The translations under genes were made by a program, and so were the position numbers. Source: an uncultured virus (IMG/VR IMGVR_UViG_3300026116_000008) (taxonomy: Duplodnaviria > Heunggongvirae > Uroviricota > Caudoviricetes). Taken from it: a stretch of DNA of 20,000 nt. Shown piece after piece: positions 278 to 11,150 of this stretch; positions within the stretch are counted from its first letter, which is position 1, and each line of letters starts with the position of its first letter. The stretch lies in the IMG/VR virus record IMGVR_UViG_3300026116_000008; one strand, written 5' to 3'. The notes under the pieces were generated by a model that did not search any database, was not told the origin of the DNA, and was given only the letters and a program-made list of their open reading frames with translations.

Positions 278-1023
278 CAACCGCTACCCCTAGCCAGCCA
301 AGGTTGTATTGGTTCTTAAAGTGCTTCGCCGGTTCCTCGCAAGCACTAAAAAATTCAGCCAACAAAAATCGACCCGCGCGAGCGATGCCCGGCGGGTCGA
401 GAAGTTGTCCACACCCAAGAGAGAAACGTTCGGAGGAACGTCGAGCCGGAACATATCGGGGTCACGGCACGCGCGCAAGTGGTGCATGGGATAATTTTCC
501 GGGGGGATTTTGGAGGACCGGTGATCACGGAGGACCCGTGAAGGGGGTGGGGGTGTCTGAGGGGGGAGGGGAGTGTGTCAATAAGTGAGGCACCTTTTGT
601 GCTATGTATCACGAATTGTGAGGGTGCGGGGGTGGTCGGGTTGTGTGTTGCCAAAGTTGATAATGTCACGTTTCGTGATACTTGGAATTTTGGGGTCGAG
701 GTGTTTCACGGTCCTAGCAATATAGCGCGCGGGCCGGTGGGGCCTGTCCATGGTGGGGGTGGGGTAGTGCGATGGCCCTTTATCAACAAATGAGACAGTC
801 CAATTGCTCTTTGTTTTCAATCACTTAGCGAGTAGCAATAAAAGACACATAGCACGAAACTACACAAATGATACGTAAAGTGCGTTACCAAACATGCTAG
901 CACCATTGGTCACGCACTTTATGAGACATCGCCTTGTCTGGTATCAACAAAAGACACATTTTGGCGCCGCTGCTAGTTTTTTTACAACTCTTTGGGCGAT
1001 CTCCTAGAACTAGAGCAAACCAT

Positions 1024-1379
1024 TGAAATCATTGAGCTTTTTGACTGCTAGTCTGTTAGTCGGCAAAAACGGCAGGTCACCGCTCCGGCAGAGAACAAGT
1101 TTCCGGAGGCGCTTCCGGAGCGTGTCTCAAAAATTGATCTGAGGAAGCGGTATCATATAACCTTATTATAACTATATGAAATAATTGTCTTTTTTACTTT
1201 TTGACTAAAAAACAAATTGAAAAATACAAATTAGATCGTATGCGATCATTCTCCGGAAAGTTCTCCGGAAACTCTCCGGAAACGCCGTTTTTGGAGGTGT
1301 CCACTGCCAGAAATCGCCGCTAACAGACTAACAGCCCCTTTTTGGACCTGCTTTTTACCAAATTTAGTTAATGATTTCA
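1024..1379. repeat. Inverted-repeat/iteron array flanking an AT-rich core (candidate replication origin)
   Basis: Mirror pairs: TGAAATCATT 1024-1033 / AATGATTTCA 1370-1379; CTGCTAGTCTGTTAG 1045-1059 / CTAACAGACTAACAG 1320-1334; CAAAAACGGC 1064-1073 / GCCGTTTTTG 1284-1293. TTCCGGAG x2 (1101-1120) faces CTCCGGAAA x3 (1251-1282). The core at about 1126-1248 is AT-rich. Confidence 0.7.
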
Positions 1380-1532
1380 TGGTGTTATCCTACAGACTAT
1401 CAACAAATGTCGCCATATGCTGGGGAACTCTTAATGAAATCAATAAGTTAGACCCATAGCCAAAAAGTAACATTCCAAGCCGGCCAAAAGCGCTCTGTAA
1501 CCCATTGATTTTATTGGTGTCTCAAATGCATG

Positions 1533-1562
1533 TTGACAAACGTGATATTAGACCGGTAAATC
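1533..1562 (+). promoter_or_regulatory. Putative sigma70 early promoter
   Basis: Perfect TTGACA at 1533-1538 and TAAATC 18 bp later, upstream of the first + strand gene. Confidence 0.55.
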
Positions 1563-1618
1563 GCCTTCGGCGAATTTAAGACAACGCCGACGACACACCC
1601 AATTGGAGCAACCAGAAA

Positions 1619-2902
1619 ATGGCTAGAACCCCTTCGATGACAACCGCGGAAGCCGAACAAGTCCTCGGCCCGCGCGGACATCTCAACGTTAATTCGGACA
1701 ACCGCGCAACCGTCCGAAAGTGGATTGTCGCGCAAGGCTTTCCTGCGCTCTTTGTCGGCGGCTTGTCCATGCGTGAATTGGCGCTGGCCTATAACCAAAC
1801 CGACGGCGCGGGCATTGCCGCCCTACAGCGCAAGTTTCAGGAAACCGAAACTGACGACGAGGACAACGCAGACGACGACGCGCAGCAAGCCGCTGCCGCG
1901 GCTGTCGCGAAGATTGGACACGCGTCGCCTGCCGCTCCCGCGCAAAACGTTGGTCCGCACAACGCCGCGGCAATCCTGCAAGGCAACGACCCGATGGCGC
2001 TGCTGCGGGAAATCTTGCTTGGCGGTTACAAGCCGGGCCTAGACGAAAATCGCGTGCGGGAAATCGTTCAGGACACTCTTGCCGGCGTCGCGCCGCGCGT
2101 CGTTGAAATCCGCAACAACGACAAGCCGCCGGTCAAAATCGAAGGCATCATTCATCCTGAATTTGAGCGCTGTCTGAAATATCTTTCGAACACTGGCCCT
2201 GACAACTATCGCGCCAATATCATGCTCGTCGGCCCTGCCGGCTGCGGCAAAACCTATCTCGCGAAGCAACTCGCCAAGGCTCTGAGTGTCGACCATACGA
2301 TTGTTGGCGGTACCGCAGGCGCCAGCGAAGGCGACCTGATCGGCCGTCTTTTACCCGGTGAAGGCGGAAAGTTTGATTACGTGCCGTCCAAGGCTATCTC
2401 GCTTTACGAGCGCGGAAACGCGCTGATCTGCTTCGATGAAATAGACGGCTTTGACCCGAACATGCTCATGGTCGCGAATATGCCGCTCGCAAATTCCTCT
2501 TGGTTCGTTCACTTGCGGCGTGACGAGCCTGAAGTGCACCGCGGTGACAACGTGTATTTCATGGCAACCGCCAACACGTACGGCACGGGCGCAAATCCGA
2601 TTTACGCCGGCCGCAATCCCATGGACGGCGCAACGCGCGACCGTTTTATCTTCATTACGGTCGACTATGACACCAAGCTTGAAGAGAGCATCGCCGCTGC
2701 CGGCGGACTGACAACTGCGGAGTGCGCGGGCCTTTGGGAAATGCGCAACCGTGCACGCGAAGCCGGCTTGCGCCGCGTCATCTCAACTCGTGCGTTCCAG
2801 AAGGCTGCGGTTATGAAGACCGCAGGCGAAACGTGGAAGGAAATCCGCGGGCATCTTCTGGAGGACTGGACCAAGGATGAGCGCGCCAAGATCGGCGTTT
2901 AA
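1619..2902 (+). CDS. MoxR/CobS-like AAA+ ATPase (AAA_5 type)
   Basis: Walker A GPAGCGKT, Walker B ICFDEID, sensor 'ATANTYG', Arg finger 'DGATRDRF', sensor II 'ISTR'. GGAG RBS at 1605. Confidence 0.9.
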   Translation: MARTPSMTTAEAEQVLGPRGHLNVNSDNRATVRKWIVAQGFPALFVGGLSMRELALAYNQTDGAGIAALQRKFQETETDDEDNADDDAQQAAAAAVAKIGHASPAAPAQNVGPHNAAAILQGNDPMALLREILLGGYKPGLDENRVREIVQDTLAGVAPRVVEIRNNDKPPVKIEGIIHPEFERCLKYLSNTGPDNYRANIMLVGPAGCGKTYLAKQLAKALSVDHTIVGGTAGASEGDLIGRLLPGEGGKFDYVPSKAISLYERGNALICFDEIDGFDPNMLMVANMPLANSSWFVHLRRDEPEVHRGDNVYFMATANTYGTGANPIYAGRNPMDGATRDRFIFITVDYDTKLEESIAAAGGLTTAECAGLWEMRNRAREAGLRRVISTRAFQKAAVMKTAGETWKEIRGHLLEDWTKDERAKIGV

Positions 2903-2905
2903 AGA

Positions 2906-2959
2906 GGGCGAAACCGCGCCATGGCGCGGTCTAGCGGTCATGCCGCTACTGACGAGCCC
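2906..2959 (+). ncRNA. Type II hammerhead ribozyme HHR1; predicted cleavage after GUC at 2931
   Basis: GGGC-GAAA-CCGCGC(CATG)GCGCGG-TC-TAGCGG(TCATG)CCGCTA-CTGACGA-GCCC. All core residues (CUGAnGA, GAAA, UH) are present and stems I, II and III pair perfectly. Confidence 0.95.
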
Positions 2960-2991
2960 AAAGCTTTCGCAGCAACAATGGAGCAACACCC

Positions 2992-3201
2992 ATGCAAGCT
3001 AAACGCAAGACGCTAACGTCGGGTTGGTATGAGTTTGATCTAGCCAACGGCAAAACCGTTGGCGTGCGATGCCACGGTAAGGGCGAATGGAGCATTTATT
3101 TTCGGCAAGACGGCAAACCCGTTGAACCTACGCCCGAAGGCGGACAAGAGATTTTTTTCCACGGCTATAAAACTGCTGTGGCGTTTGCGCTTAACCACTA
3201 A
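2992..3201 (+). CDS. Hypothetical protein (69 aa)
   Basis: ORF with GGAGCAAC RBS, lying between the ATPase and vWA-like genes. Confidence 0.75.
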   Translation: MQAKRKTLTSGWYEFDLANGKTVGVRCHGKGEWSIYFRQDGKPVEPTPEGGQEIFFHGYKTAVAFALNH

Positions 3202-3219
3202 AAAATGGAGCAACACCCA

Positions 3220-4062
3220 ATGGCCACCCATCAACCGCTACAAGATGGACGATACGACAGCGTAACGGACTTCATTGCGGCCGTTAACCTTCGGTGCTTT
3301 GAGCCCAAGAACAGAGAGCATTTCGACGGCTTAATGACCGAAACGAGATACGGGAAAAAATGGTTTGGCGCGGACTGTGCCAATGGTCGCGACGTTGAAC
3401 GCGTCATGAACAGCGGCTGGAAGGAAGGCCAAACCCGCATGGAAAAAATGCGGTCTAAAATCGGCAACGTTGAGCTTGTGCCGATTGATCGTCGTCGACG
3501 GCCTGTCAGAACCGACATGGGCGATATCGTCGACATGCCTAGCGTCTGGAGCGGCCGGCTTGATATCGCATGGAAGACCGCGAAGCGTCGCACGACGCAA
3601 GGCCCGCAGAAGATCGAACTATGCGCCAACATGCTTTGCAGCGGCGGCGAGGATGCTGACGTGCTTTTCTGGCGTGGTGCGGCTGCGGCAACACTGGCGG
3701 ATATCCTTGAGCAAGCCGGCTACATGGTTCGGCTCGTGATCGCCTTCGGTGGCAAGGAATACACCAACGGCGACGTGTCATGCCGGATCATCGTAAAAGA
3801 CCATGGCATGCCGTTGGACGTCGCCACCACGAGCGCGGTGATCCTGCCCGGTTTCTTTCGCGCCCTAGGCCATGCTTGGATCGTCAATCACTCCCGACAG
3901 CACATCGGCTATTTTGGCGGCATCACCGTTGAGCAAGGCAAGGTGGACGAAGGCGAGATTTTCCTTTCGCACGAAGTCCGCGACCAAGCGACCGCGGCTA
4001 AATTCGTCACGGCGCAAATCCAGAAACTCAACGATAGCATCATGGGAGGGGCCGCCGCCTGA
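3220..4062 (+). CDS. vWA-like (CobT-type) partner of the AAA+ ATPase
   Basis: Start moved to ATG 3220, after the GGAG RBS at 3207. The C-terminal half has an alternating beta/alpha pattern (KIELCANMLCSGG...WRGAAAATLADILEQAGYMVRLVIA) with a degenerate MIDAS. It lies next to a MoxR-like ATPase. Confidence 0.6.
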   Translation: MATHQPLQDGRYDSVTDFIAAVNLRCFEPKNREHFDGLMTETRYGKKWFGADCANGRDVERVMNSGWKEGQTRMEKMRSKIGNVELVPIDRRRRPVRTDMGDIVDMPSVWSGRLDIAWKTAKRRTTQGPQKIELCANMLCSGGEDADVLFWRGAAAATLADILEQAGYMVRLVIAFGGKEYTNGDVSCRIIVKDHGMPLDVATTSAVILPGFFRALGHAWIVNHSRQHIGYFGGITVEQGKVDEGEIFLSHEVRDQATAAKFVTAQIQKLNDSIMGGAAA

Positions 4063-4063
4063 A

Positions 4064-4124
4064 GCCCGAAAGGCCCGTCTTTAAAGACGGGCCTCTAGCG
4101 GTTACGCCGCTACTGACGATGGGC
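4064..4124 (+). ncRNA. Type II hammerhead ribozyme HHR2; predicted cleavage after CUC at 4095
   Basis: GCCC-GAAA-GGCCCGTCT(TTAA)AGACGGGCC-TC-TAGCGG(TTACG)CCGCTA-CTGACGA-T-GGGC. The core is complete, with one extra U between A9 and G10.1. Confidence 0.92.
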
Positions 4125-4152
4125 CGAAACTATCGCAGCACCCAATGGAGCA

Positions 4153-4386
4153 ATGACCATGATCGTACAAAAATCCGTTATGCAACTACTTGCGGCTATG
4201 TCACCGTCCGATCAAGCTTTAACGCGGGAATTAACCGACGCGGCGAGGGCCGGGCGCTTTGACCATGTTCAACTCGCAAGCCTGCAAGCGCGCAATCCGC
4301 ACGTTGTTTTAACCTATATGATCGAACGTCCAACACTTGTCATGCGAGACGCACGGTTCGCTAGACATGGAAAGGCAAGGCCATAA
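4153..4386 (+). CDS. Hypothetical protein (77 aa)
   Basis: ORF after the GGAGCA RBS, immediately downstream of HHR2. Confidence 0.7.
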   Translation: MTMIVQKSVMQLLAAMSPSDQALTRELTDAARAGRFDHVQLASLQARNPHVVLTYMIERPTLVMRDARFARHGKARP

Positions 4387-4436
4387 CAACAATCGACACC
4401 CGATAAAGACACCCAACAAAAACGGAGCAACGCATT

Positions 4437-5083: not shown

Positions 5084-5241
5084 GAGCCGCGCCCATAAGC
5101 GATAATCTCTCGGGCGCCTCAGTGGCGCCCGTTCGCTTTTAACGCATCAGCGGGCTTCTAATGGCTTCGAGATTTTGTAACTTTGTTGCGCGAAGGTATT
5201 CAAGAACCAAAAACTTTTTACAACTCGCGTATACAAACCAA

Positions 5242-5502: not shown

Positions 5503-5714
5503 TGGCGTCCGAACGCGTCAACACGATAGTCCTCACGGACCGGCAAGTGACGCTTGTCCGCGTCGGGCTGATCCTGCGATTGCAGCAACTCATGCAGCGT
5601 ATCAACAACGGCGATACGGACTTGCAGATCATCTATGACGAAACCCGTGCAATGCTGCTCGCGGACGGACCGTTGTCCATCGACACCATTGCGCGCAACC
5701 GCAGGGGAAAGTGA
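5502..5714 (+). CDS. Hypothetical protein (70 aa)
   Basis: AGGAG RBS, translational coupling, and resemblance to the upstream ORF. Confidence 0.75.
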   Translation: MASERVNTIVLTDRQVTLVRVGLILRLQQLMQRINNGDTDLQIIYDETRAMLLADGPLSIDTIARNRRGK

Positions 5715-6783: not shown

Positions 6784-6817
6784 AAGCCGAGGAGGGTAAA
6801 ACCTCTTCGGCTTTTCC
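6784..6817 (+). terminator. Rho-independent terminator
   Basis: GCCGAGGAGG-GTAAAA-CCTCTTCGGC followed by TTTT. Confidence 0.7.
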
Positions 6818-6819
6818 AT

Positions 6820-6848
6820 TTGACACTAGCACAAAACGTGCTTAGTAT
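6820..6848 (+). promoter_or_regulatory. sigma70 promoter with operator in the spacer
   Basis: TTGACA-17 bp-TAGTAT. TAGCAC-AAAAC-GTGCTT at 6827-6843. Confidence 0.8.
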
Positions 6849-6877
6849 GGTTGAACACACCTAAAAGAGAAACAACC

Positions 6878-7124: not shown

Positions 7125-7334
7125 ATGACCGCAATCTATTATGGCGTATACCGCGTAATGCCGAACGGCAAGCACACGTATGTGTCCCGTTCGGTCACAA
7201 ACAACAAAAAACTCGCCGAAGCTATCGCGGACGATCTTTCGCACGGTATCGTCATCCTGCCTACGGGCGCCACGAAGCGTGTCACACCGCATCCGCACGT
7301 ATGGTTGGACACATCTAAACGGAAAGGCGCATGA
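7125..7334 (+). CDS. Hypothetical protein
   Basis: GGAG RBS at 7116. Confidence 0.7.
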   Translation: MTAIYYGVYRVMPNGKHTYVSRSVTNNKKLAEAIADDLSHGIVILPTGATKRVTPHPHVWLDTSKRKGA

Positions 7335-10096: not shown

Positions 10097-10187
10097 GAGG
10101 CTCCAAGACGTTTTCACGCCGGGCGGGGTGCAAACCTCTACCCGGCTTGAAGGCGTGCTAACACCCAAAATCAATGGAGCAAAAAAC

Positions 10188-11150
10188 GTGTCTCATTTCT
10201 CTGTACTGGTCATCACTGACCGGGAACCAACCAACTATCTTCTGACCAAAATTCTCCAGCCATGGCACGAGTACGAGTGCACCGGCAAAGAAGACCAGTA
10301 CGTTATCGACGTCGACGTGACCGAGGACTGCGAGAAAACATTCAACAAGCCGCAGAAGGTCGTCCAGCTTGAAGACGGGTCCATCCACGACTATTACGAC
10401 GAGCAGTTCTGGAAACCAGAGAACGACGACAAGTTCGCACCGAAGGCGTTCTCCCTGCCGTTCGGCGGGCGACTGATCGAGGACATGCCGGCGGACGAAG
10501 CCCGCAAGCACGGCATCGGCTACAAAGACATGGAAGACTGCGTCGAAAGCGAGTGGGGCGGCTTCATCCGTGACGGACGCTGCTACCGCAAGACCAACCC
10601 CAACAAAAAGTGGGACTGGTGGGTCGTCGGTGGTCGGTGGTCGGGCATGCTTGAGCCCTACGGCGATAGCGTTCGCCTAGGCGACATGGATATCCCGGCG
10701 ATGCAGGACGCCGAGGTCGCGGTGAAGCTGCCGGAATACGATGCGTTTCAGGCGATCGTCGCTGGTCGTCCCGCGCCGGACTGGGACACGGTCCGCGAAG
10801 AAACGGTTGCTGCCGGCGGCACGATCGAGCAGGCCCGCGAGAAATACTGGAACGACCCGGTCATCTTGGACCTGAAGGCGGCGCCTCTCTTCAAAGAGCG
10901 GTGGGATTTGAACCGCGCCGTCAAGCAGATGAACTGCACCCGCGAGAAGTTCATCGAACGCACCCGCAAGCAGACGCTGCAATCGTTCGCTGTCGTCAAA
11001 GACGGCAAGTGGTACGAGCGCGGCGACATGGGCTGGTGGGGCGTCGTTATCGATGAAAAAGATATCGACACATGGGACGACGAGTTCACCAAGATGATCG
11101 AGAGCCTGCCGCCCGATACGTGGCTCACGGTCGTTGACTGCCACATCTAA
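10188..11150 (+). CDS. Conserved phage hypothetical protein (Trp-rich)
   Basis: GTG start after the GGAGCA RBS at 10176. Motifs SHFSVLV, NPNKKWDWWVVGGRW, MGWWG and C-terminal VVDCHI. Confidence 0.8.
   Translation: MSHFSVLVITDREPTNYLLTKILQPWHEYECTGKEDQYVIDVDVTEDCEKTFNKPQKVVQLEDGSIHDYYDEQFWKPENDDKFAPKAFSLPFGGRLIEDMPADEARKHGIGYKDMEDCVESEWGGFIRDGRCYRKTNPNKKWDWWVVGGRWSGMLEPYGDSVRLGDMDIPAMQDAEVAVKLPEYDAFQAIVAGRPAPDWDTVREETVAAGGTIEQAREKYWNDPVILDLKAAPLFKERWDLNRAVKQMNCTREKFIERTRKQTLQSFAVVKDGKWYERGDMGWWGVVIDEKDIDTWDDEFTKMIESLPPDTWLTVVDCHI

What the first reader, a model, noticed from the sequence alone, without database searches (positions are those of the whole stretch)
4064..4130. HHR2: variant hammerhead with a CUC site and a U inserted between A9 and G10.1
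Seen: a long stem III, a CUC triplet at 4093-4095 (G15.2-C16.2), and CUGACGA-U-GGGC. A second GAAAC at 4126-4130 could compete for the core. Known: single-nucleotide insertions at this position occur in active natural hammerheads of plant satellite and viroid RNAs. Inference: the two ribozymes may be tuned to different rates.
Basis: partly seen in the sequence, partly recalled or inferred. Interest (0 to 1): 0.7.

Follow-up and report, generated by a model that had tools for sequence, protein, structure and literature searches.

The report
Phage hammerhead with core-blocking tail
This is a real self-cutting RNA between two phage genes; its extra U and CUC cut site are common variants, but the sequence just behind it can fold back onto the catalytic core, a feature that recurs in many related phage ribozymes and may limit or lock the cut.

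Summary
HHR2 is a genuine type II hammerhead in a dsDNA phage, between a stop codon and the next ribosome-binding site; the expected cut is after C4095 (0 of 500 shuffles give such a hit). The extra U is ordinary. 24 of 155 comparable phage hammerheads carry it, a published prophage example (A. tumefaciens HH3) has it, and this scan noted it before on other DNA. CUC recurs with a compensatory G15.2. The second GAAAC cannot form stem III and does not compete. The predicted competitor is 4130-4138, which pairs with the core and U4120 (9 bp) and beats stem II by 4.5 kcal/mol in 2D folding; HHR1's version is weak. A shorter core-complementary tail is a family trait: it covaries with N7 (clusters C-G 50, U-A 34, U-G 6, C-A 0). 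I found it in no paper searched. A sister strain has a different, U-inserted ribozyme in HHR1's slot, which argues against the U tuning each slot. Best reading: an active mRNA-processing ribozyme whose tail lowers the extent of cutting or blocks re-ligation. No activity was measured.

The parts
4060..4062 (+). Stop codon of the DUF7192 gene, directly against the ribozyme
   Evidence: ORF 3205-4062, PF23822 E 4e-24; in the family an ORF of 50 or more codons ends within -12..+1 of stem II in 281 of 360, against 20 of 360 at a control position
4063..4063 (+). A just 5' of stem II; inferred partner of U1.7 (equivalent of loop A L2.4)
   Evidence: A in 219 of 221 canonical and 134 of 134 U-inserted relatives, a position fixed by no search pattern; contact itself inferred from the passage on O'Rourke et al. 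in PMC11875169
4064..4067 (+). Stem II, 5' arm (C11.1 = 4067)
   Evidence: pair probability 1.00 without the tail
4068..4071 (+). Core G12-A13-A14-A15.1
4072..4093 (+). Stem III hairpin, 9 Watson-Crick pairs, opened by G15.2-C16.2
   Evidence: (I22)
4093..4095 (+). CUC triplet; expected cut 3' of C4095
   Evidence: position by hammerhead consensus; CUC in 5 of 221 canonical and 7 of 134 U-inserted relatives
4096..4112 (+). Stem I hairpin, 6 bp plus a 5-nt loop that begins with U1.7 (4102)
   Evidence: 24 of 26 nt identical to HHR1 (D14); U at 1.7 in 48 of 51 relatives where the pattern did not fix it
4113..4119 (+). Core C3-U4-G5-A6-C7-G8-A9
4120..4120 (+). U inserted between A9 and G10.1; pairs with A4132 in the competing hairpin
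4121..4124 (+). Stem II, 3' arm (G10.1 = 4121)
4126..4130 (+). Second GAAAC; mostly the loop of the competing hairpin, not a second core
   Evidence: alternative stem III pairs have probability 0.00 and changing it has no effect on the fold
4130..4138 (+). Core-complementary tail: pairs with 4113-4115 and 4117-4122 (9 bp, A4116 bulged)
   Evidence: pair list and energies -37.8 against -33.3 kcal/mol; 8 of 300 shuffled tails suppress stem II below 0.005
4147..4150 (+). Shine-Dalgarno-like GGAG of the next gene
   Evidence: family: SD plus start within 60 nt in 290 of 362, against 34 on the reverse complement
4153..4386 (+). 77-aa ORF of no known family (start 4153 or 4159)
2905..2959 (+). HHR1, canonical type II hammerhead (GUC, cut after 2931) behind the AAA ATPase stop at 2902
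   Evidence: RF02276 38.7 bits, E 7.6e-5; replaced by another ribozyme in runs X2 and X3
2932..4095 (+). 1164-nt RNA that both cuts would release: 69-aa ORF (2992-3201) and DUF7192 gene (3205-4062)
   Evidence: inference from the two cut sites and ORFs
1619..2902 (+). AAA_5 ATPase gene (phrog_249) upstream of HHR1

Best explanation
HHR2 is a working type II hammerhead that cuts the phage's polycistronic RNA after C4095. Shown in sequence: complete core, three stems, U1.7, the A before stem II, and the position between a stop codon and an RBS. Inferred: U4120 is looped out and harmless or mildly helpful. The cut leaves the DUF7192 message ending in the stem III hairpin with a 2',3'-cyclic phosphate, and a downstream message starting with a 5'-OH and the stem I hairpin. 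About 14 nt after stem II is complete, the tail 4130-4138 can pair with the core and the 3' arm of stem II. It thereby lowers the share of transcripts that are cut compared with HHR1, and/or buries the core in the 3' product so that the cut is not re-ligated. CUC and the second GAAAC play no special part.
For: Descriptor hit with 0 of 500 shuffles. U-inserted forms are common and keep their register: 120 of 125 pattern loci give a 4-5-bp stem II in the +1 register, with 16 arm combinations, 134 unique ribozymes in 89 clusters. This fits the in vitro effects reported in PMC3705267 (U faster, A moderately slower, C and G detrimental). A. tumefaciens prophage HH3 has the same U by my reading of primers JP090, JP096 and JP130, and its array gave the fragments expected if all three ribozymes cut. 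An engineered hammerhead cuts a CUC site efficiently (PMC11875169 passages). Tail: folding; TCAG one base behind stem II in 48 of 362 against 0.0016 per position; N7 covariation over 87 clusters C-G 50, U-A 34, U-G 6, U-U 1, C-A 0; complements of GAAA or CGAA are not enriched (1 and 3 of 152, against 28). In the 3' product the hairpin has probability 0.99.
Against: No cleavage was measured. 2D folding puts the intact HHR2 almost wholly in the blocked form (0.00-0.003); tertiary and Mg2+ energy is not modelled, so it could be nearly silent. HHR2's tail is not the family's common form: it is longer, set further off and has A6 bulged, and its own significance is modest (8 of 300 shuffles below 0.005, 31 of 300 below 0.1). 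In canonical relatives real tails do not suppress stem II more than shuffled ones overall (65 of 220 against 49.4 expected, p 0.30). Rfam does not score HHR2. No hammerhead stands behind the DUF7192 gene in any of 24 related loci, some of them duplicates. PMC11875169 has a section titled that the U7 residue is not essential in its construct.
Confidence: 0.6

Rival explanations
1. HHR2 is an ordinary, constitutively fast processing ribozyme. The tail complement is functionally silent: tertiary folding wins, and the inverted repeat is kept by DNA-level processes (template-switch correction of quasi-palindromes, or a protein-binding palindrome).
For: Most relatives lack the short tail (135 of 155 in the unbiased scan). 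Canonical and U-inserted forms share loci (10 of 68 multi-ribozyme loci are mixed) and replace each other in one slot. HHR2's tail is degenerate.
Against: Departures from perfect pairing are of the RNA-tolerated kind: U-G in 6 clusters, C-A in 0; G8 faces C or U in 108 of 108. Only the CUGA strand has an enriched complement, and only downstream (28 against 0 upstream of 152). In U-inserted relatives real tails suppress stem II more than shuffles (43 of 133 against 21.4, p 5e-6).
Confidence: 0.22
2. One reading: the extra U and the CUC site (and a rival GAAAC) are selected to give HHR2 a rate different from HHR1.
For: The triplet and the inserted base are known to change rates a few-fold. 10 of 68 multi-ribozyme loci mix both forms.
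Against: 58 of 68 such loci are uniform (43 canonical, 15 inserted; loci come from scans that were biased by pattern). Strain X2 has U in the HHR1 slot too. The second GAAAC cannot pair into a core, and a GAAA lies within 20 nt behind stem II in 92 of 355 relatives anyway.
Confidence: 0.1
3. HHR2 is a silenced or decayed copy: the tail traps the core and it no longer cuts in the cell.
For: Blocked fold favoured by 4.5 kcal/mol, and an upstream stretch (4048-4053) also competes for the 5' arm of stem II (0.55). HHR2 is in the most blocked tenth of the family (16 of 154 below 0.003).
Against: No core, stem or tertiary-position change. Identical in X2, which differs at 23 other places over 916 nt (weak, about 1.5 changes expected in 61 nt). 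The tail type is recurrent and covaries, so it is not damage. X2 has a synonymous change at 4050 that weakens the upstream competitor.
Confidence: 0.08

Closest known systems
Type II hammerhead ribozymes of phages and prophages (Rfam RF02276; Perreault et al. 2011, PMC3088659)
   Same: Open stem II, full consensus core, tandem copies flanking single genes or short gene blocks in phage DNA, proposed to cut polycistronic RNA.
   Different: HHR2 misses the Rfam model. It lacks the loop I / 3'-tail pseudoknot that the paper gives for most type II examples, and has a U1.7 loop and an A before a 4-bp stem II instead. Its 3' tail is complementary to the core, not to loop I.
Agrobacterium tumefaciens C58 prophage hammerhead HH3 (PMC3088659, oligonucleotide table, Figures S2-S3)
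   Same: Type II, U between A9 and G10.1 (my reading of primers JP090, JP096, JP130), sits in an array with canonical copies; the array cuts in vitro and in E. coli.
   Different: Stem II appears 3 bp and stem I differs; I saw no comment on the insertion in the parts read, and could not see the gels.
CChMVd (+) viroid hammerhead with extra A10 (De la Pena and Flores 2001, seen only as reported in PMC3705267 and PMC1636495)
   Same: One extra base between A9 and G10.1; U there raised the rate 3-4-fold; the extra base also serves another fold of the RNA.
   Different: Viroid hammerhead in a circular RNA, natural base A, role in rolling-circle replication; here a DNA phage intergenic type II ribozyme with U.
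Minimal hammerheads with the U1.7 / A(L2.4) Hoogsteen contact (O'Rourke et al., seen only as reported in PMC11875169)
   Same: Unpaired U at 1.7 and an A immediately 5' of the 11.x strand of a 4-bp stem II.
   Different: There the A ends a stem II tetraloop; here stem II is open and the A follows the upstream stop codon. The contact is inferred, not shown.

Membership tests
Type II hammerhead ribozyme | Core C3 U4 G5 A6 N7 G8 A9, G12 A13 A14 A15.1, U16.1, H17 | tested here: met
   4113-4119, 4068-4071, 4094, 4095
Type II hammerhead ribozyme | Stems I and III closed by loops, stem II open, each paired next to the core | tested here: met
   6-7, 9 and 4 bp; stem II with U4120 looped out; probability 1.00 for 4060-4126
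Type II hammerhead ribozyme | Self-cleavage 3' of H17 | not testable with these tools
   No assay; no RNA run holds the stretch
Type II hammerhead ribozyme | Tertiary contact between stem I and stem II | tested here: inconclusive
   U1.7 and the A before stem II are present and conserved (48 of 51; 353 of 355); the contact is inferred
Rfam RF02276 (Hammerhead_II model) | Score at or above the gathering threshold of 37 bits | tested here: not met
   No match at 4064-4124 up to E 1; HHR1 scores 38.7. The model also missed canonical descriptor hits in L009 and L017, so this lowers membership of the Rfam alignment only
Pseudoknotted type II hammerheads (Perreault 2011) | Four or more pairs between loop I and the bases just behind stem II | tested here: not met
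   Read from the sequence: loop 4102-4106 against 4125-4129 gives two pairs, an A-A mismatch and two pairs; no run of four
Minimal type I/III hammerhead built on the second GAAAC | Stem III beyond A15.1-U16.1 and a stem II closed between A9 and G12 | tested here: not met
   4093-4130 and 4094-4129 pair probabilities 0.00

The most novel reading that the evidence does not exclude
A sizeable part of phage type II hammerheads, HHR2 among them, are self-gated. A tail that covaries with the catalytic core races stem II during transcription, or traps the core while the ribosome ending at the adjacent stop codon covers the 5' arm of stem II. Each ribozyme thus sets what share of the polycistronic RNA is cut at that gene border. 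The extra U, enriched among tail-bearing copies, speeds the core and adds a pair to the gate. These stop-ribozyme-RBS modules are exchanged between strains as units.
Probability: 0.3. Interest if true: 0.7.

Novelty: new variant of a known kind. Interest (0 to 1): 0.45.

Why it matters
What the many hammerheads between phage genes do is an open question (PMC6155905 and PMC6765202 passages). The core-complementary tail, if functional, would be a natural built-in control on these ribozymes: either a rheostat for how much of a phage operon RNA is cut, or a lock against re-ligation. It can be tested with short transcripts. The strong preference for U at this position across many phage lineages also gives a natural counterpart to an old in vitro result, and shows that Rfam's type II model undercounts these ribozymes.

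Tried and rejected
Second GAAAC as alternative core: rejected. Loop I pseudoknot with 4125-4129: no run of four pairs. Assembly error at U4120: rejected. Cleavage opening the downstream RBS: not predicted; 4147-4149 are paired about equally in precursor and 3' product. Conserved placement behind DUF7192: not found in 24 loci L004-L027, which include duplicates and one with only 62 nt downstream; hammerheads occur upstream of the homologue in L009, L017 and L029. Rfam on 20 of these loci gave one tRNA only. No whole genome is held. No match among cultured phages for 4040-4170. No promoter-like site on the + strand upstream of the ribozymes passed the scan. The type II alignment in the supplement of PMC3088659 could not be seen (file cut; descriptor file unreadable); it may already show the insertion column or the tail. 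Look-ups of earlier scan notes for the tail, by sequence and by place gave nothing. Counts differ by de-duplication: 142 unique U-inserted ribozymes with flanks in the key, 134 on the ribozyme alone; I use 134. Rows dropped before counts: 5 of 125, 10 of 137, 61 of 75, 1 of 126 and 2 of 13 loci without a descriptor hit, and L090 as a copy of HHR1 (from then on, in the pooled counts). A G insertion was not scanned for separately (0 of 155).

Full report
Context. The window is part of a dsDNA phage: family A DNA polymerase, SNF2 helicase, PD-(D/E)XK nuclease, MazG-like and many small ORFs on the + strand. The best holders are rhizosphere and soil metagenomes. Two type II hammerheads lie 1164 nt apart. 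HHR1 (2906-2959) follows the stop of an AAA_5 ATPase gene. HHR2 (4064-4124) follows the stop of a DUF7192 gene at 4062. Each is followed by a GGAG and a start codon.

Observation. A descriptor search found only these two type II hits in the window; 3 of 500 shuffles gave any loose hit and 0 of 500 one of this strength. Rfam scores HHR1 (38.7 bits) but not HHR2. Contigs of X1, X2 and X3 cross HHR2 without gaps. X1 has no difference there, and all 23 differences of the X2 contig are listed and lie outside 4051-4244. For X3, 6 of 13 differences are not shown.

The extra U is common. A scan fixing only this stem I gave 63 loci; with the window these held 97 unique type II hammerheads, 95 canonical and 2 with the U, one being HHR2. 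Of these, 120 give a proper ribozyme, 134 unique sequences with 16 stem II arm combinations in the +1 register, in 89 clusters by flank similarity. It covered roughly a tenth of the collection (6 of 53 known hits), so a few hundred U forms are likely (inference). A complete scan for A or C at that place gave 12 and 1. Slippage would more easily duplicate A9 or G10.1 (inference), so the preference for U points to selection on catalysis. It agrees with the report that U there raised the rate 3-4-fold, A lowered it moderately, and C and G were detrimental (PMC3705267, passages; the original paper not seen). The primers in the oligonucleotide supplement of PMC3088659 show a type II ribozyme with this U, and the text says the array gave the fragments expected if all ribozymes cut. 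PMC10085705 (passages) treats insertions of one or two bases next to CUGAnGA as present in known alignments.

CUC is a minor but recurrent triplet: 5 of 221 canonical and 7 of 134 U-inserted relatives, always with G15.2; the combination of U and CUC occurs in 7 other loci. An engineered hammerhead cuts a CUC site well (PMC11875169, passages).

Signs of a working fold. The base just 5' of the 4-bp stem II is A in 353 of 355 relatives, though no pattern asked for it. Position 1.7 is U in 48 of 51 where it was free. HHR2 has both (A4063, U4102). They match the U1.7 / A(L2.4) Hoogsteen contact described for minimal hammerheads (as reported in PMC11875169, which also questions its necessity in its own construct). 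The contact is inferred. The setting is the family's rule: an ORF ends within -12..+1 of stem II in 281 of 360 (control 20), and an SD with start follows in 290 of 362 (control 34). Perreault et al. (parts 1-3 of 8, one methods section, passages, two supplements read) describe such arrays and propose processing of long phage transcripts; they detected no spliced or circular products.

The second GAAAC does not compete. It would need C4130 to pair with C4093; the pair probabilities are 0.00, adding 4127-4131 leaves stem II at 1.00, and changing the GAAA alters nothing. A GAAA lies within 20 nt behind stem II in 92 of 355 relatives.

The predicted competitor is 4130-4138. It pairs with 4113-4115 and 4117-4122, nine pairs including U4120-A4132. 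With it, stem II falls from 1.00 to 0.00 (-37.8 against -33.3 kcal/mol). Removing U4120 restores 0.63, and changing the tail restores 1.00. HHR1 carries a related but weak tail (stem II 0.74). In HHR2's 3' product the hairpin has probability 0.99. 8 of 300 shuffled tails suppress stem II below 0.005. These are 2D predictions without tertiary energy.

A core-complementary tail is a family trait. TCAG stands one base behind stem II in 48 of 362 relatives, against 0.0016 per position further downstream. Of 108 unique ribozymes: C-G 67, U-A 35, U-G 5, U-U 1, C-A 0, on 61 different stem I arms. By flank clusters, with 11 from bacterial genomes added: 50, 34, 6, 1 and 0 over 87 clusters, Fisher p 5e-19 (clustering is a rough guard against shared descent). 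Complements of GAAA or CGAA are not enriched, and the TCAG is not found upstream. The tail is enriched with the U: 9 of 24 against 11 of 131 (p 0.0007), by cluster 6 of 19 against 11 of 97 (p 0.03). Real tails suppress stem II more than shuffled ones in U forms (43 of 133 against 21.4 expected) but not significantly in canonical forms (65 of 220 against 49.4, p 0.30). HHR2's own tail is a longer, offset version with A6 bulged, so its tie to this class is by function, not by exact motif. Paper searches (listings) and scan look-ups showed no description of this tail. The library lacks most subscription journals, and the type II alignment of PMC3088659 was cut.

Against slot-specific tuning by the U. 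In run X2 the HHR1 slot holds a different ribozyme: at least 12 substitutions and 5 indels within 2906-2966, compensatory changes at 2933/2947 and 2936/2944, and a U put in behind A9 (2955), with few listed changes in the flanks. X3 breaks off at 2905 into what reads as a similar alternative ribozyme. X2 thus seems to carry the U at both slots; the two contigs have similar depth (8.1, 8.4) but are not joined. Of 68 loci with several ribozymes, 43 are all canonical, 15 all inserted and 10 mixed (pooled from pattern-biased scans).

Mechanism. Most likely HHR2 cuts after C4095 and, with HHR1, can release a 1164-nt RNA bearing the 69-aa ORF and the DUF7192 gene (inference). Stem II is complete 14 nt before the tail is. 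At bacterial elongation speeds of tens of nt per second (recalled) that is under a second, close to the half-life of natural hammerheads above 100 per min (PMC6155905, passages). Some transcripts could therefore cut before the tail pairs, and the rest depend on tertiary energy. After the cut the tail would bury the core and disfavour re-ligation. A ribosome ending at 4060-4062 would cover the 5' arm of stem II (footprint recalled), which offers a link to translation. None of this kinetics is shown. Folding does not predict that the cut opens the RBS.

Verdict. The ribozyme is real and probably active. The U and the CUC are known or common, and the second GAAAC is irrelevant. The covarying core-blocking tail is the part I could not find described and is worth a bench test. 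Novelty: new variant of a known kind; interest 0.45.

Noticed in passing
window 2906-2966 against runs X2 and X3: The HHR1 slot holds a different hammerhead (U-inserted in X2) in sister strains whose flanks show few changes, suggesting that ribozyme modules are swapped as units.
   Followed up: partly
L004:4818-4873, L012:891-940, L013:4819-4869 and 5565-5619, L014:2421-2471 and 3028-3082, L016, L017:4374-4432, L024:639-697: Behind the DUF7192 homologue, in the slot HHR2 fills here, several relatives carry another conserved motif with a variable inner hairpin and two mutually exclusive pairings; it is repeated at a second gene border in three loci (8 of 563 loci match, some duplicates). No convincing Rfam match in three loci. 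Possibly an undescribed intergenic RNA.
   Followed up: partly
window 4364-4407 against runs X2 and X3: 44 nt at the end of the 77-aa ORF are replaced by 13 other letters in both sister strains.
   Followed up: no
window 4048-4053: The last codons of the DUF7192 gene can pair with the 5' arm of stem II (probability 0.55); a synonymous change at 4050 in X2 weakens this pairing.
   Followed up: partly
window 2976-2994, 3203-3221, 4143-4161, 10172-10190: A shared ribosome-binding motif precedes several genes (D1); similar text stands before the ORFs at 1619 and 5305.
   Followed up: no
window 6820-6865 and 7299-7319: A good sigma-70-like promoter (10 of 12) overlaps a 21-nt repeat that recurs at 7299 before another small gene (D3); a strong hairpin precedes it at about 6784-6817, and a weak PtaRNA1 match (E 0.51) lies on the - strand.
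   Followed up: no
window 800-1600: Long A+T-rich non-coding stretch with inverted repeats (876-921; 1098-1120/1251-1273) and short direct repeats, between leftward ORFs and the AAA gene; possible origin, genome end or control region.
   Followed up: no
window 5111-5139: Terminator-like hairpin on the + strand about 1 kb behind HHR2, a possible end of the transcript that HHR2 opens.
   Followed up: no
L034, L076, L103/L285, L119, L132, L259-L261: Phage contigs with arrays of 4-9 type II hammerheads, one at nearly every gene border; some arrays are wholly U-inserted.
   Followed up: partly
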